From a virus, in IMG/VR virus record IMGVR_UViG_3300022074_000013, positions 30,776-94,775 of that record: a stretch of 64,000 nucleotides of DNA. One strand, 5' to 3'. The notes beneath the pieces were generated by a model. The model made no database searches. It worked only from the letters and a program-made list of their open reading frames with translations, and had not been told where the DNA came from. Both the position numbers and the translations under genes were made by a program. This document shows, in pieces, positions 1 through 8,521 of this stretch (its first letter is position 1; every line of letters starts with the position of its first letter).

Positions 1-1980
1 GAAACAAACGCTGGTGTCGCAACATTTGACGGAACAGACTTTACTGTATCAGCTGGTGATGTCACGGTAAACGCAGAAAGAATTCAAGATATCGTTGGTG
101 CAATGGTATCAGGAAATACTGAAAGTGGTATCACAGTTACATATGAAGACGGTGACGGTACTTTAGACTTCTCTACTACACTAGGTGGTCTTGCTGGTAC
201 TTCTGATAATATCACAGAAGGTTCAACAAATTTATTCCTTACCAACGAAAGAGTAGACGATAGAGTAAACGCACTATTGACTGCTGGTACAAACATGTCA
301 TTGACATATGACGATGCAGCTAATACTTTAACAATTGCGTCTTCGGGTAAAACAGAAGAAGAAATAGAAGACATTGTTGGTGCACAACTTGCTACAAACG
401 GTTCACACACAAATATCACTGCAACATATGACGATGCTGGTGACGGTGCGGTAGACCTTGCAATTACAGACGCAACAATCAGAGGAAAGGTTTCCGTAAC
501 AGATTCAGGTGGAGACGGTTCACTTGCATACAATAACTCTACAGGTGTTATCACATATACAGGCCCAAGTGCGTCAGAAGTAAGAGCACATATCTCAGGT
601 GGAACAGGTGTTACTGTATCAAGTGGTGAAATTGCAATTGGACAAGCAGTTGCAACAAGTTCAAATGTAACTTTCGCAGACGTAGCTGCAACAGGTAATT
701 TGACAGTTACAGGTAACTTAGATGTAAACGGAACAACCACAACTTTAGACACTACAAACTCAACAATTACAGATAGATTGATTGAGTTAGGAAATGGTAC
801 AACAGGAACACCTGCAAATGATATGGGTATTGTTCTTGAAAGAGGAGACTCAGACAACGCATTTATAGGTTGGGATGAAAGTGCAGACAAATTCTTAGTA
901 GGTACAGGTTCATTTACAGGTGCAAGTACAGGTGACTTAACAGTTACTACAGGAACACTTGTAGCAAACTTAGAAGGTAACGTAACTGGTAACGTAACTG
1001 GTGACTTGACTGGTAACGTAACTGGTAACGTTAGTGGAACTGCAGCTACAGTAACAGGTGCAGCTCAAACAAACATTACAAGTCTTGGAACTCTTACAGC
1101 ATTAACAGTAGACGATATTAGTATTGACGGTTCAAAGATATCTATAGCCGATAACTCAGCAACTGCTCTTACCATTTCAGAAGGTAGTAATGACTATTTA
1201 ACTTTTAATACTACAGACTCAGCAGAAACAATATTATTAGGAAAACCTCTTGATACAAATGGTAATGCAATTATTTTTGATGTAGATGGTGATACATCAA
1301 TTGCTGGTTCACCTATTGATGATATGTTGATATTTAAATCTGGTGGAGCTTCATGGTTATTAGCTTCTGCAAATGTTGGTTTATCACCAAATGTTGCATT
1401 CCCCCTTGGTAATTCAAGTTATCCGTTTACCCATTTATATGTGGACAATATTTTTGTTGATGGTAATACAATTAAATCAGAAAATTCAGATGGCGATTTA
1501 ATATTTAAAGGCAACGATGGCGGTTCAGAAATAACTGCTCTTACACTTGATATGTCTGAAGCAGGTGCAGCTACTTTTAATGCAGGAGTAACTGCTACTA
1601 CATTTACAGGTGCATTAACTGGTAACGTTACTGGTAACTTAACTGGTAATGTCACAGGTAATGTTAGTGGAACTTCAGGTTCAACAACAGGTAATGCCGC
1701 TACAGCAACTGCATTACAAAATGCAAGAACAATCAACGGAGTATCTTTTGACGGAACTGGAAACGTAACAACCTTGACTGCAGGAACAGGTGTTTCTGTA
1801 TCAGGAACCGAAGTTGCAATCGGACAAGCAGTTGCTACAAACAGTAACGTGACCTTTAATCAGATACACACCGACTACGCAAGTAATAGTGGACAAGTTG
1901 CAAGGAACATTTACCAATCAACTTCTGCTCCAAGTGGTGGAGACGGACAAGTCGGCGACTTATGGATTTTATACTCTTAA
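1..1980 (+). CDS. Tail fibre-like structural protein (5'-truncated; frame open from base 1)
   Basis: Frame 1 is open from position 1. Gly/Thr/Asn/Asp-rich, with GNVT repeats, a duplicated '[23 protein letters not shown]' block and a C-terminal '[14 protein letters not shown]' motif typical of fibre ends. Confidence 0.8.
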
Positions 1981-2003
1981 TAAGGGTAACAGGATAATAT
2001 AAT

Positions 2004-3377
2004 ATGGCATCAGGCTCACAGAAGGTTAAAACACCTACAGGCTGGAACGCAACTCAAGGTGCGTGGGTTAAAACGCCTGACGGTTGGCGTGCAGTAGAGC
2101 AAGTCTATATTAAAACGCCTGACGGGTGGAATAATGCTAGTGGTCAAGAAGATACACAACAACCTGCTCGAAGACCTGCAACTGGTAGACTTCAAGCACA
2201 AAGACCTGCAACTGGTCAATTACAGGCACAAAGACCTGCAATAGGAACAACACCTGCAAGAAGACCTGCGACTGGTAGACTTCAAGCACAAAGACCTGCA
2301 TCAGGACAGTCGCCAAGCACTTATCAGGCGCAAGGAAGATATCCATATCCTGCCAATGCACAGGCACCTTATCCTGCTAATGGACAACAGCCAGGCACAT
2401 ATCCTGCTAACGCTCAGACGCCTGGCACATATCCTGCAAATGCTAGAGGAAGATATCCTGCTAACGGACAATCGCCAGGCACATATCCTGCTAATGCGAG
2501 ACAGCCAGGAACTTATCAGGCAAGATATCCATTTACTTATCCTGCTAACTCACAAAGTCCATTTACGTATCAGGCAAGATATCCATTTACATACCCTGCT
2601 AACTCACAGTCACCATTTACGTATCAGGCAAGATATCCGTTTATTGCACCTACAACATATCAGGCACCTACAACGTATCAGGCAAGATATCCATTTATTA
2701 CACCTGCGAGACAACCTTTCACTTTCTCATTCATGAAAGACGGGATAGTTTATAACGGTCAGAATCCTTTTACTACAAGTGCAAGGGGTAGGTATCCTGC
2801 TAATACAACGTATCCTGCTAACACGAATACAAATGCACGTGGAAGATATCCTGCCAACGCAAGGCAGCCAGGAACTTATCAGAATAACGCAAGAGGAAGA
2901 TACCCTGCTAATGCAAGACAGCCAGGCACATATCAAAACAATGCACGTGGAAGATATCCTGCGAACTCACAGTCACCATTTACTTATCAGACGCCTTATA
3001 GAACTCCGTTTACATATCAGGCAAGATATCCATTTACATATCAAGCGTCTTATAGAATTCCGTCTACTTATCAGGCGTCTTATAGAACACCGTTTACGTA
3101 TCAGGCAAGACAACCTAGCACGTATCAAGCACAAGGAAGATATCCGTATCCTGCTAACGCACAGACATCATATAATTTCCAACAGAACTATCAGAACCCA
3201 TACCCGTTCCAACAGAATTATCAAAATCCGTATCCGTTCCAACAGAACTATCAGAACCCGTATCCGTTCCAACAGAACTATCAGAACCCGTACCCATACC
3301 AGCAGAACTATCAAAACCCTGTTCAACGTTGGGACGGTGTGTTACAACAACAATGGCCTGCAACACCTATTTCGTAA
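2004..3377 (+). CDS. Pro/Gln/Tyr/Thr/Arg-rich repeat protein; putative fibre-tip adhesin or beta-hairpin needle
   Basis: Three N-terminal KTPxGW repeats, then ~390 aa of mirror-registered repeats around FSFMKDGIVY. Lies directly after the fibre gene. Confidence 0.7.
   Translation: MASGSQKVKTPTGWNATQGAWVKTPDGWRAVEQVYIKTPDGWNNASGQEDTQQPARRPATGRLQAQRPATGQLQAQRPAIGTTPARRPATGRLQAQRPASGQSPSTYQAQGRYPYPANAQAPYPANGQQPGTYPANAQTPGTYPANARGRYPANGQSPGTYPANARQPGTYQARYPFTYPANSQSPFTYQARYPFTYPANSQSPFTYQARYPFIAPTTYQAPTTYQARYPFITPARQPFTFSFMKDGIVYNGQNPFTTSARGRYPANTTYPANTNTNARGRYPANARQPGTYQNNARGRYPANARQPGTYQNNARGRYPANSQSPFTYQTPYRTPFTYQARYPFTYQASYRIPSTYQASYRTPFTYQARQPSTYQAQGRYPYPANAQTSYNFQQNYQNPYPFQQNYQNPYPFQQNYQNPYPFQQNYQNPYPYQQNYQNPVQRWDGVLQQQWPATPIS
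2172..2303 (+). repeat. 30-bp (10-aa) tandem repeat RPATGxLQAQ, about 5 copies
   Basis: AGACCTGC recurs every 30 bp. Confidence 0.85.
3177..3323 (+). repeat. 30-bp (10-aa) tandem repeat FQQNYQNPYP, 5 copies
   Basis: ttccaacagaactatcagaacccgtatccg-like unit repeated five times. Confidence 0.95.
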
Positions 3378-3413
3378 CACACTAAATATACTCACATAAG
3401 TGAGATTTTTATT

Positions 3414-4940
3414 ATGACAGAAATTGACCATTTAATTGATTTTATTCCATTTCGCCTAGACTGGACGCAAGAAAGTGTTCGTAGACAACTCTTTTATAAG
3501 AGCGGTCACCATATTGGCAATATTCCTGTTAACGAAGACGGTTCTATTGATACTGAATGTGACACATATAAAGTTGTACAATACTTTGTAGATAATGTTT
3601 ATGTTCCTAATGTGAAATTAGTAACTTGGGGTGATATTAAAAAGTGCGGATTCATGCCTTTGGAATCATTTGGATTAGACTATCAAGCGTCTAATTATTT
3701 AAAGTATATTCCTAATTTCCATACTTACGGTGCTAGTATGAAAAAAATAACTACCGCAACGGGAGATATTACTGGTGGAAATGAAGATGGAAATGATATA
3801 ACTGGTTCGGGATTTTATCATGGGTGTAAAGGACATTGGTTATTACATGATATTCAGAAGAATGGTTTAAATCAACCGATAACTATTGTATTACAAAAAA
3901 GCGGAAGAAACGATAGAATTGAATACAACCCACATATACACCCTGGCTCAGTACGACAAGGTGTATTCGGTGCGACAGACGATGAAAGTATGACCTGTAT
4001 TGTTTGGGACGCATATAACGCCTTTGATTGGATAGAACCTTTAACTACTGATGAGTGGTTAAGAAGTTTTACTACACCACAGTTTGACGGCATGAGACCG
4101 ACACAATTACATGTATCTTACAATTATACTAGTATTGAAGTGCAAACTTCGGGTGAATGGAATAATGGAAGGTCAGAACCCGATAGACAATGGAGAGAAA
4201 AAGTAAAGGATTTTTCTAAAAAGGTATCAGAAAAATTCAATGGAAAACCTTTAAACATATATCTTGGGTATGATTCAAGACATGAAGATATAACAGACGT
4301 ACAAATAAATTCTATTAATCAAGCATGTCAAAGAGCAGTTAATGACTCACAGTGTAGATTTGAACCTGAAATAAAACTACTTGACGTATCAAAGATTCCC
4401 GAATATACTAGAGAGTACGCAAATCAATCGACAGAATTTACTTATAGCAGATTCTTAATTCCATACTTAGAAAATTATGAAGGGTTTAGTATATTCATAG
4501 ATAATGATTTTGTATGGAAACAACCTTGGTATGAAATGTTTTATTTTCTACACCCCGACAATGCAGTAGCATGTGTTCAATATGAATATGAACTAGAAAA
4601 AATGTCTAAGACTAAAATGGGTGGTGAAGAGAATGTTATGTATCCTAAAAAGTTGTGGTCTAGTTTCATGATATTTAATAATGCTCATGAAGACTGTAAA
4701 AAATTAACACCCGAAGTTGTAAATACTGCGAGTGGTCAATACTTACACCAGTTTGAATGGACTGATAGTATTGATAGAATCCCTGACAAATATGTCTTTA
4801 CAGAAGGCATGTCAGACGAAGATAAAAGATATCATGCGGTGCATTATACAAGAGGTGGCCCATGGATAAAAGATATGGACTGTAGTGACATATCGCAATT
4901 AAAGTTATACGAAAAGTATAAAAATATACTCAATAAATAA
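3414..4940 (+). CDS. Glycosyltransferase (GT-A fold, GT8/CDI-like C-terminal domain) with an N-terminal ParB-like or unknown domain
   Basis: IYLGYDSR, STEFTYSRFLIPYL, FIDND (DxD), YPKKLWSSFMIFN and HYTRGGPW. The N-half has 'DIQKNGLNQPI...HPGSVR', resembling ParB/Srx. Confidence 0.75.
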   Translation: MTEIDHLIDFIPFRLDWTQESVRRQLFYKSGHHIGNIPVNEDGSIDTECDTYKVVQYFVDNVYVPNVKLVTWGDIKKCGFMPLESFGLDYQASNYLKYIPNFHTYGASMKKITTATGDITGGNEDGNDITGSGFYHGCKGHWLLHDIQKNGLNQPITIVLQKSGRNDRIEYNPHIHPGSVRQGVFGATDDESMTCIVWDAYNAFDWIEPLTTDEWLRSFTTPQFDGMRPTQLHVSYNYTSIEVQTSGEWNNGRSEPDRQWREKVKDFSKKVSEKFNGKPLNIYLGYDSRHEDITDVQINSINQACQRAVNDSQCRFEPEIKLLDVSKIPEYTREYANQSTEFTYSRFLIPYLENYEGFSIFIDNDFVWKQPWYEMFYFLHPDNAVACVQYEYELEKMSKTKMGGEENVMYPKKLWSSFMIFNNAHEDCKKLTPEVVNTASGQYLHQFEWTDSIDRIPDKYVFTEGMSDEDKRYHAVHYTRGGPWIKDMDCSDISQLKLYEKYKNILNK

Positions 4941-4958
4941 GAATAGAGGTAATATATT

Positions 4959-5516
4959 ATGAATCAACTTGTTTTTACAGAAGATAACAATCTTCACATC
5001 ACCAAACCAAACGGTTTGAGATACCAATTTGACAATGTCGAAAAACCAAATTTAGGTTTTGATTTTGACGTTATTGTTTATGACGGAGACAGCGAATTTA
5101 AAATTGTCGGTTACAACGATGACATTCCTTTCGATGAACAGGATAAACATGCACTTGTAGACGAAGAAAGAGACGCTATCGAACAGTTTATTGAACAGTC
5201 AGAACCACCAAATGGTATGTCCTTAAACAATCAGTTTATGGCAGACTTAGAAAATTTAACTCACGACAAAATAGAAGACTGTGCAATAAGATATAATTTT
5301 AGAAATCTTAACGAATGTGTATATGCTGGACGAGAAGGTTCTAATCATACGTATAGGTCAGAAGCACGTAGAGTTTTAGAATATGCAGATGCAACTTGGT
5401 CAATATGTTTTCAAACGCAAGAAGAAATAATGGCAACAAGAGAAGACCATTTGAAACCTTTTGACGAATACGTAGTAGTGTTGCCTGAAACAGTATCACC
5501 AAATAATATTTGTTAA
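4959..5516 (+). CDS. Hypothetical protein, possibly tail fibre assembly-like
   Basis: ORF with SD (GAGG). The C-terminal 'YRSEARRVLEYADATWSIC' resembles fibre-associated phage proteins. Confidence 0.45.
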   Translation: MNQLVFTEDNNLHITKPNGLRYQFDNVEKPNLGFDFDVIVYDGDSEFKIVGYNDDIPFDEQDKHALVDEERDAIEQFIEQSEPPNGMSLNNQFMADLENLTHDKIEDCAIRYNFRNLNECVYAGREGSNHTYRSEARRVLEYADATWSICFQTQEEIMATREDHLKPFDEYVVVLPETVSPNNIC

Positions 5517-5517
5517 A

Positions 5518-6279
5518 GTGAACGTTGTCTACCACGACAAACCTTTCAGACTAACGAAAGATAATTATCCGTTAGGGGATACCTTTCATGTTATCGATAA
5601 TTATTTGGCGGACGAATTACACCACCATTGGGATAAGTCATTAGTCGCAAGTAACCTTTGGTCTAAAACTAATCAAGTTGCGTCCGATAGTAAAACAGGA
5701 TTACCACATCATTCCTTTTGGGGTGGAACATTTTTTAGAGATGTTCCTAATCATGAACACGTAGATTGGTGTCAAGGAAATCAGATAAATCGTTCAGATA
5801 CTTACTTTGCTTCATATTTTAATACTAGAGTAATGAATGACTTTGGTTTTCGTTGGGTTGAGTTTGATTACATGGGTTTGAATTCACAAACTCAAGGACT
5901 AGACGGTACATGTCATAATGATTGTGCGCCTGAATGTGAGTGGAACATATCTTTTTTGTATTACTTAAATACATTTTGGAATCCTAAATGGGGCGGTGAC
6001 TTAAGAGTGTATGATGAAAATATTGGTAGCGGTGTTGCAGAAGAAATGAACAAACACGAAATAGGAAGAATAGAATTTAAACCAAACAGATTACTTATGT
6101 TTGACGGAAGGATACCTCATGGTGCAGAAGCACCAAAACCTTCTGCAAGATATGTAGATAGACGTTCATGTGTATTGCGTGGTTCAGAAATAAGATTAGT
6201 ACCTCAAGAAGAACAAAGAAAAGAAGTTGCACCAAGACAACTAAGATATCAGAGATATATGAGATATGCCGACAATTGA
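5518..6279 (+). CDS. 2OG-Fe(II) oxygenase (prolyl hydroxylase-like)
   Basis: HxD (HND), 'LYYLNTFWNPKWGGDL', 'FKPNRLLMFDGRIPHG' and distal Arg. GTG start. Confidence 0.85.
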   Translation: MNVVYHDKPFRLTKDNYPLGDTFHVIDNYLADELHHHWDKSLVASNLWSKTNQVASDSKTGLPHHSFWGGTFFRDVPNHEHVDWCQGNQINRSDTYFASYFNTRVMNDFGFRWVEFDYMGLNSQTQGLDGTCHNDCAPECEWNISFLYYLNTFWNPKWGGDLRVYDENIGSGVAEEMNKHEIGRIEFKPNRLLMFDGRIPHGAEAPKPSARYVDRRSCVLRGSEIRLVPQEEQRKEVAPRQLRYQRYMRYADN

Positions 6280-7135
6280 GTTTAAAACATATAATGATAC
6301 CGCATTTGAATTAATGCGTCCTGTACCTGCAAGTAAAATGCAACCCGATTGGTGGAAAAAATCTAAAGTGCATATGATTGATAAAGGGGTGGTTGGGATA
6401 TCATTAAGAGCTTGTCCTGCAATGCATGATTGGTTATCAACAGGATATTATATCGCAACAAATAGAGATATACATTGTGAATTCAATCAAACTCTTGTAA
6501 GTGGTGGTGATTGGCATGCTACCGTTCCGCCTGACGGTGAAAATTTTGAAGCTTCATATGCTTCACCTACACATTCAAAACACCAACTAATGAATGATAA
6601 TTTCTCATTCTTAAAAGGAGATGGTTCTGATGAAAATCCTCATGACGCATTCAAATTTAGAGTACCTTGGTCTGTAGTAACACCGCCTGGCTATTCTTGT
6701 TTATATCTTGACCCCTTTTTACATCAGAATAAATATTTTAGAACATGGCAAGGAACAATGGATACTGATATGTTTAATACCTTAACAGATAATACGCAGA
6801 TTATTATGTATCCATTAAGTGACAAGTCTTTTGTTATACCTAAAGGAACACCCATAGTACAGATAGTTCCTTATAGGAGAGAACAGTGGACTGCGTCTTA
6901 TATTAACATGGACGGGAGTGCATATATAAATGAAGTAAGTCATTTAACAAGTGAATACGGCAAACCTTCAATATCTGAATTGTGTGAAGTTGAGGGTGAT
7001 GCAAGTTCGCCAGACGGACAGGTGCCTGGCGGATTTTACAGAAAATACATGTGGACGACTAAAGCAAAAAACTTTAAGGACGCTCCACCTAATGAATGCC
7101 CCTTTGACCCAAAAACAGGAGAAATGAAAAAGTGA
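6266..7135 (+). CDS. DUF6065-like protein (dUTPase-like beta fold)
   Basis: 'CPAMHDWLSTGY', 'PWSVVTPPGYSCLY', 'GTMDTD' and 'IPKGTPIVQIVPYRR'. Confidence 0.6.
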   Translation: MPTIEFKTYNDTAFELMRPVPASKMQPDWWKKSKVHMIDKGVVGISLRACPAMHDWLSTGYYIATNRDIHCEFNQTLVSGGDWHATVPPDGENFEASYASPTHSKHQLMNDNFSFLKGDGSDENPHDAFKFRVPWSVVTPPGYSCLYLDPFLHQNKYFRTWQGTMDTDMFNTLTDNTQIIMYPLSDKSFVIPKGTPIVQIVPYRREQWTASYINMDGSAYINEVSHLTSEYGKPSISELCEVEGDASSPDGQVPGGFYRKYMWTTKAKNFKDAPPNECPFDPKTGEMKK

Positions 7136-7770
7136 AATACGAAGGATATACAGAGTTCGAGGCTAATAAAACTAAAGGTGATAACAATGTTGGAGTTGAT
7201 ATCGATAGTTTATACGAAGGACAAACTAATGTTCAAATAGAAGGTTTTGATGTAGGTACAGACGCCAGTACACCTGCTTTTTATATTTGGAATTCTATGA
7301 ACTGGCACGAAGATACTTATTGTGGTTGGAAAACTTTTAAAGGTGAACAAGACCATAATACACTGTCAACAGTATGGGAAACGAGGTGGTGGCATTCAAT
7401 CCAACCAGCACCTTACAAGTATGTGGGTGGCCCTTATAGAGCTGCTGTTGCAGATTATACTTTTGGTGTGTTTGGATTATTCTTTTGTCAAAGGTTTGTT
7501 CCAATTACAGATTTGAGAGTCACTTATGACAAAGCAATTAAAGTAGGTGATACTATAGAATGTGTAATAACAAACACTGTAATTGAAAATGACATTTTGA
7601 AACAAGAGTTAATTCAAAGAATTTACGGTAGTGATGAAATTGTTGGTCGTGCTTGGGCAAGTCACTTCATGAAGAAGAAAGAAGACTATAAAGAAAAACA
7701 ACAAGACTTAACTGAATTAAATGGTGACGGTAATCGTGACCGAGGAAGGTACGGGGAAGATGTCAGTTAG
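7132..7770 (+). CDS. Hot-dog fold (thioesterase/dehydratase-like) protein
   Basis: 'YVGGPYRAAVADYTFG...TDLRVTYDKAIKVGDTI' resembles the PaaI-type hot-dog pattern. Confidence 0.5.
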   Translation: MKYEGYTEFEANKTKGDNNVGVDIDSLYEGQTNVQIEGFDVGTDASTPAFYIWNSMNWHEDTYCGWKTFKGEQDHNTLSTVWETRWWHSIQPAPYKYVGGPYRAAVADYTFGVFGLFFCQRFVPITDLRVTYDKAIKVGDTIECVITNTVIENDILKQELIQRIYGSDEIVGRAWASHFMKKKEDYKEKQQDLTELNGDGNRDRGRYGEDVS

Positions 7771-8521
7771 ATTACTGTTTCCACATTACGTATTTCAAAG
7801 AAATATGTTAGACCCAAATCTTGACGAAAGTCAAGGATATGATTTGGAGTATAACGAAATGTTAGTTGCAGAAGTTGACGCAATGCGTAAGCGTGACCCT
7901 AAAGGTAGACTTGTATCTAATTCACCTAACCCTGCTACAATGCATAGGTCGGGTTGGCAGTCTAATGACGGTTGTGAAAGTAGTCCAGTCTTTCAGAAAT
8001 GTATGAATCGTATCAGTAAGTTTTTTTCTGACGAGGTTTTACCTTTTCATGGTATTCAAAATTCTAATGGTCTTAAAATGAGGCCAGGCAATTCATGGGC
8101 AAACATAAATGAAACTATGTCTTGGAATAGACCTCATACTCATAATGGTTGTTGGTATTCAGGTGTTTTATATCTAAAAGCAGACGGAGATGAAGGTAAC
8201 TTTTCTGCAATTGATACAGACTCTAAAGTTCTGTCTATGTTTCCGCACCACCAAAGAGTTAGAACTAATTGGGACGTTCAACCTAGAACAGGAGATATTC
8301 ATATATTTTCTAGTGGTTTAATGCATATGGTTGAACCTAATATGACTGACAAAGAAAGATATAGCATATCGTTCAATATGGATTTACATGACGTGGTAGG
8401 CCCAACTGGATTCTTTCCTGATAATGGTGCTGGTTACTTTGGTCAAGACTTTACTGTTGATGAATGGAATCCTGATGAATTTTCATTTAATTTAGACGAA
8501 AGAGGAAATCCAATACGTTAA
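7721..8521 (+). CDS. Putative 2OG-Fe(II) oxygenase, TIGR02466 type (true start possibly 7760)
   Basis: 'WANINETMSWNRPHTH...YSGVLYL' and 'HMVEPNMTDKERYSISFN'. Confidence 0.85.
   Translation: MVTVIVTEEGTGKMSVRLLFPHYVFQRNMLDPNLDESQGYDLEYNEMLVAEVDAMRKRDPKGRLVSNSPNPATMHRSGWQSNDGCESSPVFQKCMNRISKFFSDEVLPFHGIQNSNGLKMRPGNSWANINETMSWNRPHTHNGCWYSGVLYLKADGDEGNFSAIDTDSKVLSMFPHHQRVRTNWDVQPRTGDIHIFSSGLMHMVEPNMTDKERYSISFNMDLHDVVGPTGFFPDNGAGYFGQDFTVDEWNPDEFSFNLDERGNPIR

What the first reader, a model, noticed from the sequence alone, without database searches (positions are those of the whole stretch)
2154..3323. Mirror-registered repeat protein: a ~190+190-residue hairpin with a residue-pairing code
Seen in sequence (ORF 2004-3377): the two halves hold an exact antiparallel register i+j=491 around the only non-repetitive segment, FSFMKDGIVY (K245/D246, nt 2736-2741). 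All 14 PAN triplets (aa 116,124,134,144,152,162,180,198,265,271,283,301,319,383) sit opposite a TYQ, and all 14 TYQ sit opposite a PAN. ARYPF faces ARGRY five times, once with the arms swapped (147/340). SQSPFTY faces ANARQPG three times, in both orientations. AQGRYPY faces itself. Five RPAxG decamers face five FQQNYQNPY decamers. Inference: an extended two-stranded beta-ribbon (about 60-65 nm if fully extended, possibly trimerising into a needle), attached to the upstream fibre through the N-terminal KTPxGW repeats, with the tip loop as receptor contact. Length changes would need matched repeat gain or loss in both arms. I know of no description of this pairing code.
Basis: partly seen in the sequence, partly recalled or inferred. 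Interest (0 to 1): 0.93.

Follow-up and report, generated by a model that had tools for sequence, protein, structure and literature searches.

The report
Mirror-coded giant beta-hairpin phage protein
A protein of an uncultured marine T4-like phage has two ~190-residue halves that mirror each other residue by residue, and its relatives always gain or lose repeats in matched pairs on both halves, as RNA stems do, which points to an unusually long two-stranded beta-hairpin filament.

Summary

I found 11 more orthologue sequences in viral and marine metagenome contigs, giving 10 lengths from 434 to 561 aa. In all 12 sequences the best mirror axis is exactly length+34. The same axis is found from the inner arms alone.

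Between close orthologues, nearly every arm-1 indel of 2 aa or more has a partner of the same size and sign, in mirrored order, in arm 2.

Over 2382 facing pairs, an aromatic faces Ala/Gly/Ser 775 times and another aromatic twice. Pro faces Gln/Arg/Thr/Asn 709 of 721 times and Pro once. Shifted axes give 84-206 aromatic-aromatic clashes.

Both arms show a strict two-residue periodicity, and the axis falls on a conserved Lys-Gly turn.

Best reading: an intramolecular amphipathic two-stranded beta-ribbon, about 60-80 nm long and strongly cationic. It is encoded right after a conserved fibre gene.

Oligomeric state, docking to the fibre and receptor role are untested. AlphaFold2 gave no confident model. 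No Pfam, PHROGs, PDB or GenBank-phage relative was found.

The scan had also noted this stretch, and a paralogue, in another window.

The parts
1..1980 (+). 3' part of the upstream fibre-like gene (runs off the window start). It ends in the tail ...[20 protein letters not shown].
   Evidence: ORF. It has a weak PHROG 'structural protein' hit. The C-terminal tail is conserved, and a gene of this family follows 18-60 nt downstream, in about 50 loci.
1981..2003 (+). 23-nt intergenic spacer with an AGGA ribosome-binding site before the ATG.
   Evidence: Sequence read. The gap is 18-26 nt in the orthologue loci.
2004..3377 (+). The repeat protein ('B'), 457 aa plus stop. It has no Cys or His and a net charge of +34.
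   Evidence: Full-length orthologues share the same N- and C-termini.
2004..2150 (+). N-terminal head, residues 1-49: three 14-residue repeats with KTPxGW at residues 9, 23 and 37. Proposed docking module.
   Evidence: The head is conserved at 71-98% identity across 30 loci. It holds almost all of the few residues AlphaFold2 placed above pLDDT 70, as short beta-hairpins. Its docking function is inferred only.
2151..2738 (+). Arm 1, residues 50-245: RPAxG decamers (57-106), flank STYQAQGRYPYPANAQ, two 28-mers, three 18-mers and 6/12-mers. From 104 to 240, Tyr/Phe, Ala and Gly are only at odd positions and Pro, Arg and Asn only at even positions; the RPAxG decamers keep the same Pro and Ala/Gly phase but have no aromatics.
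   Evidence: TRF periods of 30, 54 and 84 nt. Parity counts: 26/0 aromatic, 0/25 Pro, 21/0 Ala.
2733..2744 (+). Turn M244-K245-D246-G247 at the mirror axis (245.5).
   Evidence: In orthologues the computed axis falls on K-G in 9 of 12, and on K-D, K-Q or K alone in the rest. Both AlphaFold2 runs place strands at 240-245 and 248-252/253.
2739..3326 (+). Arm 2, residues 246-441: mirror image of arm 1 in unit lengths, with complementary unit types. It ends in five QQNYQNPY decamers (392-441). Phase is reversed: aromatics, Ala and Gly at even positions, Pro and Arg at odd positions.
3327..3374 (+). C-terminal tail RWDGVLQQQWPATPIS, residues 442-457. Under the register it returns opposite residues 34-49 of the head.
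   Evidence: The tail is invariant in the 7 aligned orthologues. It also occurs on proteins with another head type (P0077, P0248).
3414..6279 (+). Conserved downstream neighbours: a glycosyltransferase-like gene (3414-4940), a 185-aa ORF (4959-5516) and a 2OG-Fe(II) oxygenase (5518-6279). These are context and possibly modifying enzymes.
   Evidence: tblastn hits to annotated glycosyltransferases. Pfam PF13640. The same order is seen in 6 of 6 orthologue loci.

Best explanation
The gene encodes a single chain that folds back on itself. Residues 50-245 run out and residues 246-441 run back, so that residue i lies opposite residue L+34-i along the whole length. The result would be an amphipathic two-stranded antiparallel beta-ribbon of about 190 rungs, roughly 65 nm here and 61-82 nm in orthologues.

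Proposed anatomy:
- One face carries exactly one aromatic ring per rung (Tyr or Phe on one strand, Ala/Gly/Ser on the other).
- The other face carries Pro, Gln, Arg, Thr and Asn, with at most one Pro per rung. These positions are presumably the non-hydrogen-bonded ones, where Pro costs nothing and blocks edge-to-edge aggregation.
- A Lys-Gly type turn closes the tip.
- The conserved N-terminal head (three 14-residue hairpin repeats) and the conserved C-terminal tail meet at the base.

Evolution: because each repeat unit must lie opposite a unit of equal length and complementary type, the protein changes length only by matched gain or loss in both arms.

Function: the ribbon is strongly cationic (+34) and Tyr-rich. 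I infer that it is a thin virion filament carried on the end of the fibre encoded just upstream, making first, reversible contact with anionic host surface polymers.

What is shown: the mirror register, the pairing rule, the compensated indels, the periodicity, the turn motif and the gene linkage.
What is inferred: the beta-ribbon geometry, that pairing is within one chain, virion location, docking and adhesive role.
For: 1. Register. The best mirror axis equals L+34 in all 12 orthologue sequences of 10 different lengths, 434-561 aa, with z 5.7-7.1. The same axis is found from the inner arms alone in 7 of 7. A leave-one-out pair code finds it in 32 of 33 separate 40-residue zones.

2. Compensated indels between close orthologues. 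In the five clean pairs below, each arm-1 indel has a partner of the same size and sign in arm 2, in mirrored order and near the mirrored position.
- L084/L083: +18, -6 against -6, +18.
- L012/L085: +10, +2, -6 against -6, +2, +10.
- L085/L083: +8, -2 against -2, +8.
- L010/L083: +8, -4 against -4, +8.
- L012/L010: +10, -2 against -2, +10.
- L008/window: +20, +6, -2, -6, -6 against -6, -6, -2, +6, +20, plus a further -2 and a 1-aa insertion at the turn.
- In L008/L007 (+10 and +6 against a single +16) and L085/L010 the alignment splits indels, but the net change per arm still agrees to within one residue.

3. Pairing rule over 2382 facing pairs.
- Aromatic-aromatic 2; aromatic-A/G/S 775.
- P-P 1; P with Q/R/T/N 709 of 721.
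- At axes shifted by 2-12 residues, aromatic-aromatic is 84-206 and P-P is 55-239.

4. Residue-level swaps that keep the rule. Aromatic|small to small|aromatic occurred 69 times and P|x to x|P 58 times across 55 non-independent comparisons. No change created an aromatic|aromatic or P|P pair.

5. Strict two-residue periodicity in each arm, with a phase flip at the centre.

6. The axis lands on K-G in 9 of 12 orthologues, and on K-D, K-Q or K alone in the other three. Both AlphaFold2 runs put a small hairpin there.

7. Independent paralogue A (L006:10995-12407).
- Its axis is s=450, z 5.2, with the same ARYPF/ARGRY facing.
- Eight YP pairs are separated by irregular mirrored gaps; gap-shuffle p<1/3000.
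- Compared with its orthologue P0046, a 10-aa deletion at 99-108 is matched by one at 341-350; the mirrored position is 342-351.
- The code derived from B picks one consistent axis in most of the A-type proteins tested.

8. There is no DNA inverted repeat.

9. Gene linkage to the fibre is seen in about 50 loci.
Against: - There is no structural evidence. AlphaFold2 gave mean pLDDT 41 (single sequence) and 38 (11-sequence alignment) with no folded arms.
- One relative, P0096, is 96% identical to P0066 and carries an uncompensated 36-aa deletion in arm 2, leaving arm-1 residues 32-67 without a partner. It may be a short-read assembly collapse, or it may show that imbalance is tolerated.
- Indels near the large central region of A-type proteins are not always size-matched. 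In P0126/P0128 the arm-1 indels are +6, +2, +2 and +1 against +10 and +6 in arm 2.
- Avoiding side-by-side aromatic pairs is not a general requirement of beta-hairpins. The one-ring-per-rung rule may therefore reflect packing against something else, and the ribbon may not be free-standing.
- Sequence alone cannot separate pairing within a chain from pairing between chains.
- Virion location and function are inferred from gene order only.
Confidence: 0.75

Rival explanations
1. The pairing runs between chains. Two or three copies lie antiparallel or domain-swapped, so that residue i of one chain faces residue L+34-i of another. This gives the same sequence constraint without a monomeric hairpin.
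For: The mirror rule and the compensated indels would be produced equally by an antiparallel homo-oligomer. Phage fibres are usually oligomeric, which I take from general knowledge.
Against: A conserved Lys-Gly turn sits exactly at the axis in all orthologues, and AlphaFold2 places a hairpin there. In paralogue A one docking repeat is N-terminal and two are C-terminal, which fits a chain that returns to its start. A fully extended antiparallel dimer would put heads about 130 nm apart at opposite ends.
Confidence: 0.1
2. The arms do not touch each other. Both run out and back along a common scaffold, for example the shaft of the upstream fibre, and must match that scaffold's repeats. Equal lengths would then follow from the shared path.
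For: Very tight gene linkage with the fibre. Head and tail are both conserved, which suggests both chain ends are anchored at one place.
Against: Compensation is local and exact, with unit types complementary rather than identical, and with aromatic|small and Pro|x swaps between arms. This is what direct contact predicts. The upstream fibre varies in length (519-741 aa as called) without relation to arm length.
Confidence: 0.08
3. Coincidence in a low-complexity tandem-repeat protein. Blocks of equal period happen to be arranged symmetrically, and the protein is an unstructured linker or a substrate for modification.
For: Within the single window protein, much of the pattern follows from block structure: [5x10][2x28][3x18] | [3x18][2x28][5x10]. 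About 60 Hint-bearing homologues with the same head show no mirror signal.
Against: 12 of 12 orthologues of 10 lengths keep the axis at L+34 to the residue. Nearly every indel between close orthologues is paired. The paralogue has irregular mirrored spacings. The clean pairing rule exists only at the exact axis.
Confidence: 0.01

Closest known systems
Needle (D10-D11) of the phage T4 long tail fibre protein gp37
   Same: It belongs to a T4-like phage fibre. The chain runs out to a tip and back, so one domain (D10, residues 811-881 and 1010-1026) is built from two distant segments (PMC6957217). It is a thin elongated beta structure at the distal end of a fibre.
   Different: The gp37 needle is a trimer held by seven iron ions bound to His (PMC6957217). 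This protein has no His at all and no detectable sequence similarity to any solved structure. Its arms are about three times longer and obey a residue-pairing rule with compensated indels, which has not been described for gp37.
Hint / bacterial intein-like (BIL) autoprocessing proteins: the Hint-bearing homologues of this family
   Same: They share the conserved N-terminal head and the same kind of Y/P/Q/A/N/R repeats with strict two-residue periodicity. They occupy the same gene position after the same fibre tail.
   Different: Those homologues end in GGGGC plus a Hint domain (PF14890, PF01079, PF14623) that finishes with VHN. They have a single-phase repeat region with no return arm and no mirror axis. 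The window protein has no Cys and no Hint domain.
PAAR-repeat tip proteins on trimeric spikes (T4 gp5.4, T6SS)
   Same: The analogy is to the head only. One chain with three similar short repeats could cap the blunt end of a trimeric fibre with pseudo-threefold symmetry. This comparison rests on my own knowledge of PAAR proteins.
   Different: There is no PAAR motif or Pfam hit.
Alternating-copolymer beta proteins and thin single-layer beta rods (silk fibroin GAGAGS; SasG/Aap G5-E rods; OspA)
   Same: They share a strict two-residue alternation giving two chemically different faces. SasG and OspA are precedents for long, thin beta-sheet rods without a globular core. This comparison rests on my own knowledge.
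   Different: They are not homologous. None is a single hairpin of about 190 rungs, and none has a described complementarity rule between distant halves of the sequence.
Compensatory evolution of RNA stems
   Same: The evolutionary signature is the same: paired positions co-vary through swaps that keep the pair, and insertions or deletions occur on both strands of the stem.
   Different: This is a protein. The 'pairs' are aromatic/small and Pro/polar side-chain combinations, and there is no complementarity at the DNA level.

Membership tests
T4 gp37-type needle domain | The chain goes to the tip and returns, so both ends lie at the base. | tested here: met
   Met at sequence level only. The mirror register at L+34 holds in 12 of 12 orthologues, with a K-G turn at the axis. 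No structure is available.
T4 gp37-type needle domain | HxH motifs that bind iron along the needle. | tested here: not met
   The window protein has 0 His and orthologues have at most 1.
T4 gp37-type needle domain | Sequence similarity to gp37 or other solved fibre tips. | tested here: not met
   A profile of 11 orthologues against all PDB sequences gave no hit at E<=1. Pfam and PHROGs gave 0 families.
T4 gp37-type needle domain | Homotrimer. | not testable with these tools
Hint / intein-like autoprocessing proteins | A Hint domain with an N-terminal Cys nucleophile and a C-terminal HN. | tested here: not met
   There is no Pfam Hint hit and no Cys. About 60 homologues with the same head do carry the domain.
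Marine myovirus 'KTPxGW-head' repeat protein family (unnamed; defined here) | A conserved ~50-residue N-terminal head of three 14-residue repeats. | tested here: met
   The head is 71-98% identical across 30 loci. 58 of the 120 listed database hits carry the head.
Marine myovirus 'KTPxGW-head' repeat protein family (unnamed; defined here) | The gene lies 18-60 nt after a fibre gene ending ...STSAP...GAVGD(L/M)W(I/V)LYS. | tested here: met
   The window fibre ends ...[11 protein letters not shown] with a 23-nt gap. The same holds in about 50 loci.
Marine myovirus 'KTPxGW-head' repeat protein family (unnamed; defined here) | A repeat region with strict two-residue periodicity, Pro and aromatics in opposite phases. 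| tested here: met
   for the window protein and for the Hint-type homologues.
Collagen-like or extensin-like hydroxyproline-rich rods | Gly-X-Y triplets, or Ser-Pro(n) / X-Pro runs with three-residue (PPII) periodicity. | tested here: not met
   The periodicity is 2, not 3, and there are no Pro-Pro runs or G-X-Y triplets. Hydroxylation or glycosylation by the neighbouring enzymes was not testable.

The most novel reading that the evidence does not exclude
This is a natural protein 'duplex', by far the longest beta-hairpin known at 185-248 rungs. It would be held in register by a simple complementarity rule: one aromatic per rung opposite Ala/Gly/Ser, Pro opposite Gln/Arg/Thr/Asn, and Asn opposite Thr. 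It would evolve like an RNA stem, through compensatory swaps and paired repeat gain or loss. A single chain would cap a trimeric phage fibre through a pseudo-threefold head and serve as a length-tunable, cationic, Tyr-lined adhesive whisker.
Probability: 0.45. Interest if true: 0.92.

Novelty: categorically new. Interest (0 to 1): 0.88.

Why it matters
If the arms pair as the comparative data indicate, four things follow.
- This is a new kind of protein architecture with a readable pairing rule. Such a rule is rare outside coiled coils and collagen.
- It gives protein designers a natural template for very long, register-specific beta-ribbons. Negative design is built in: Pro on the edges and one aromatic ring per rung.
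- It gives evolutionary biologists a protein case of stem-like compensatory indels, with an implied fitness valley between balanced states.
- For marine virology it defines a widespread, modular family of fibre-tip proteins in uncultured T4-like phages. The heads are conserved and the distal parts are swapped: hairpin, Hint domain or globular domain. Length tuning from 61 to 82 nm may matter for finding hosts in dilute seawater.

The rule is directly testable with recombinant protein.

Tried and rejected
- **DNA-level palindrome.** The repeat finder found 0 inverted repeats, and opposite-strand frames encode unrelated Cys/Ser/Ile-rich peptides. Rejected.
- **Chance.** This was my first reading. 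The 120 database homologues showed no comparable peak, and block structure explains part of the pattern. I abandoned it after the paralogue and the orthologues.
- **AlphaFold2.** The single-sequence run and the run with an 11-orthologue alignment both gave mean pLDDT of about 40, with arms unfolded. I therefore ran no fold search, because low-confidence models give meaningless matches.
- **Complex prediction.** I sent three copies of the fibre C-terminus plus the head.
- **GenBank phages.** The whole protein and the head alone gave no match. megablast of window 1-8000 also gave no match.
- **Pfam, PHROGs and PDB.** Sequence searches gave nothing. The head profile's best PDB hit is a de novo designed beta-barrel at E=0.003. 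I read this as shared hairpin-like 'DG-turn' periodicity, not homology.
- **ESM Atlas.** It returned only unnamed viral clusters below score 0.9 and holds no structure.
- **Literature.** Searches for a prior description found none.
- **Whole-protein mirror scan of A-type relatives.** It gave weak, scattered axes. Only the zone test with the B-derived code recovered consistent axes.
- **Cross-beta meander (neighbouring units pairing) and beta-solenoid models.** Rejected, because compensation is between mirror units, not adjacent ones, and unit lengths are irregular.
Full report
**The object.** The window is part of a 94.8-kb IMG/VR record of a T4-like marine myovirus. It carries large terminase, sheath, portal and DNA polymerase genes. 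Its portal is only about 55% identical to those of pelagimyophage Mosig, the Methylophilales Melnitz phages and cyanomyoviruses. ORF 2004-3377 (+) encodes 457 aa. It starts 23 nt after a large fibre-like ORF and has an AGGA ribosome-binding site. Gln, Pro, Ala, Tyr, Thr, Asn and Arg make up 77% of it. It has no Cys or His and a net charge of +34.

**Checking the observation.**
- Mutual information between residue i and residue s-i peaks at s=491. The value is 1.75 bits, against 1.42 for the next axis and at most 1.0 for any direct offset.
- The DNA has tandem periods of 30, 54 and 84 nt but no inverted repeat. The symmetry therefore exists only in the protein.
- The 'code' can be restated more simply. 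The arms are chains of 6/8/10/12-residue units that begin with P or Q and end in TY. The order of unit lengths is a palindrome: 8,8,10,10,8,10,10,8,10,8,10,12,6 and then the reverse.
- Because blocks of equal period always have some mirror axis, this one protein on its own is only moderately surprising.
- Among 120 database homologues none showed a comparable peak. At that point I leaned towards coincidence.

**What changed my reading.** I fetched it (L006:10995-12407, 470 aa).
- It also follows a fibre-like gene.
- It has its own mirror axis at s=450, z 5.2, with the same ARYPF/ARGRY facing.
- Eight YP dipeptides are mirrored across irregular gaps of 12, 18, 20, 8, 12, 8 and 30 residues. No gap shuffle out of 3000 reached this.
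- Its 65%-identical orthologue P0046 is 27 residues shorter. A 10-residue deletion at 99-108 is matched by a 10-residue deletion at 341-350, and the mirrored position is 342-351. Most of the other length differences lie in or near the centre.

**Decisive comparative test.** The search for related loci returned full-length orthologues of the window protein from IMG/VR and marine metagenomes. With the window protein they make 12 sequences of 10 lengths: 434, 457, 469, 475, 519, 531, 543, 547, 555 and 561 aa. All have the same head and the same C-terminal tail.
- In every one the best mirror axis is exactly L+34, with z 5.7-7.1.
- The same axis is recovered from the inner arms alone in 7 of 7.
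- A pair code learnt from the other orthologues recovers it in 32 of 33 separate 40-residue zones.
- Between close orthologues, arm-1 indels have partners of the same size and sign in arm 2, in mirrored order:
  - +18, -6 against -6, +18
  - +10, +2, -6 against -6, +2, +10
  - +8, -2 against -2, +8
  - +8, -4 against -4, +8
  - +10, -2 against -2, +10
  - +20, +6, -2, -6, -6 against -6, -6, -2, +6, +20
- In two further close pairs the alignment splits indels (for example +10 and +6 against +16), but the net change per arm still agrees to within one residue.
- Unit types even change sides. L013 has ARGRY and PANTTY units in arm 1 where the window protein has them in arm 2.

**The pairing rule.** Pooled over 2382 facing pairs in 11 distinct orthologues:
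- An aromatic residue faces Ala, Gly or Ser 775 times and another aromatic twice.
- Pro faces Gln, Arg, Thr or Asn 709 of 721 times and Pro once.
- Asn faces Thr 232 times.
- At axes shifted by 2-12 residues in the same phase there are 84-206 aromatic-aromatic pairs and 55-239 Pro-Pro pairs.
- In aligned pairs that still face each other there are 69 aromatic|small to small|aromatic swaps and 58 Pro|x to x|Pro swaps. No change creates an aromatic|aromatic or Pro|Pro pair. The 55 comparisons are not independent.

**Structural inference.**
- Within residues 104-240, all 26 aromatic, 21 Ala and 8 Gly residues are at odd positions, and all 25 Pro, 9 Arg and 8 Asn are at even positions.
- Within residues 251-391 the phases are exchanged. 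The flanking decamer blocks keep the phase of their arm.
- Such strict two-residue periodicity over about 190 residues per arm indicates extended beta conformation with two different faces.
- Placing all Pro in one phase fits the non-hydrogen-bonded positions of a two-stranded antiparallel ribbon.
- The computed axis falls on K-G in 9 of 12 orthologues, and on K-D, K-Q or K alone in the others. This is a typical tight-turn motif.
- Both AlphaFold2 runs place strands at 240-245 and 248-252/253 around it, but are otherwise unconfident, with mean pLDDT 41 and 38.
- With about 0.33 nm per residue the ribbon would be about 65 nm long here and 61-82 nm in orthologues.
- I therefore judge an intramolecular hairpin the best explanation (0.75).
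- Pairing between chains (0.10) and co-alignment on a common scaffold (0.08) are not excluded by sequence alone.

**Family context.**
- The protein belongs to a large, unnamed family of marine virus proteins: 311 hits in the first search and 128 in the exhaustive one.
- None is in 50,697 GenBank phage records. None has a Pfam, PHROGs or PDB relative for the repeat part.
- The family is modular. There are two head types: KTPxGW x3, or IYINT at the N-terminus with two VYxN repeats at the C-terminus. All share a Y/P/Q/A/N/R repeat region. C-termini vary.
- About 60 of the listed homologues end in GGGGC plus a Hint/intein-like domain (PF14890, PF01079, PF14623). Those I tested keep the two-residue periodicity in a single phase and show no mirror axis. 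The return arm is thus a sub-family feature.
- In the A-type proteins the code derived from B orthologues finds one consistent axis in the outer ~120 residues of most proteins tested.
- One variant, P0096, lacks 36 residues of arm 2 without compensation. It may be a real unbalanced allele or a collapsed assembly.

**Gene neighbourhood.**
- In about 50 loci the family gene lies 18-60 nt after a fibre gene whose last residues are nearly invariant...ARNxYQSTSAP...GAVGD(L/M)W(I/V)LYS.
- In 6 of 6 orthologue loci it is followed by the same glycosyltransferase-like gene, a 185-aa ORF and a 2OG-Fe(II) oxygenase.
- This supports a virion-fibre role and possibly post-translational modification, but does not prove either.

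**Comparison with known systems.**
- The nearest functional analogue is the T4 gp37 needle, whose chain also runs to the tip and back (PMC6957217). That needle is an iron- and His-dependent trimer with much shorter arms and no described pairing rule. This protein fails its defining sequence features.
- Literature searches found no description of a mirror-coded repeat hairpin.

**Verdict.**
- The central inference (antiparallel register, with matched length changes) is strongly supported by orthologue comparison.
- Trimerisation, docking and receptor contact remain open.
- I rate it as categorically new in architecture and evolutionary behaviour, within the familiar setting of phage fibre appendages.

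Noticed in passing
L006:9388-12407 (G000:C1:23387-26406, upstream of the window): A second fibre-plus-hairpin gene pair. The fibre-like gene (529 aa) ends ...GHLWFVI. It is followed by paralogue A (470 aa), which has one docking repeat at the N-terminus (EIYINT) and two at the C-terminus (VYLNDAGTL..., VYVNNQGTL...). The long repeat region thus looks like an insertion inside a three-repeat head. A central F.FSF..KD-like motif is shared with the window protein.
   Followed up: partly
Homologues P0001-P0058 and loci L016-L074: Most proteins with the same head carry ~200 residues of single-phase alternating repeats and then GGGGC plus a Hint/intein-like domain ending VHN a few residues before the stop. 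This suggests self-cleavage or ligation of a one-armed version of the ribbon. What pairs with the single arm is unknown.
   Followed up: partly
window 1897-1977 and about 50 loci: The fibre C-terminal tail ARNxYQSTSAP(5)GAVGD(L/M)W(I/V)LYS is almost invariant although the fibre bodies vary. It is always followed by a gene of this family, making it a candidate docking peptide.
   Followed up: partly
P0066 versus P0096: These proteins are 96% identical and differ by a single uncompensated 36-residue indel in arm 2. This is the only unbalanced variant seen. It comes from a 2.5-kb contig, so it could be a repeat collapse in assembly.
   Followed up: partly
window 3381-3392: ACTAAATATACT lies between the repeat gene and the glycosyltransferase-like gene. 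It contains a TAAATA element resembling T4-type late promoters.
   Followed up: no
window 3414-8521: A run of a glycosyltransferase-like gene, small ORFs and two 2OG-Fe(II) oxygenases (PF13640, PF13759). The first three genes are syntenic in 6 of 6 orthologue loci. The run could hydroxylate or glycosylate the Pro/Thr/Tyr-rich ribbon.
   Followed up: partly
window 2016-3399, other frames and minus strand: Many long ORFs overlap the gene in other frames, for example 2779-3399(+) at 206 aa. They are by-products of stop-poor repetitive DNA. Some database 'proteins' (P0196, P0224) are frame-shifted readings of relatives.
   Followed up: partly
L016-L021, L051: Shorter family members of 251-299 aa stop right where the Hint domain would start (...PYPFGGFLKFS...EP). 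These are Hint-less truncated forms whose tblastn match continues beyond the stop.
   Followed up: no
P0077, P0248, P0272: The C-terminal tail RWDGVLQQQWPATPI(S/T) also occurs on proteins with the other head type (MADDIYINT...). The tail is therefore a separately exchangeable module.
   Followed up: no
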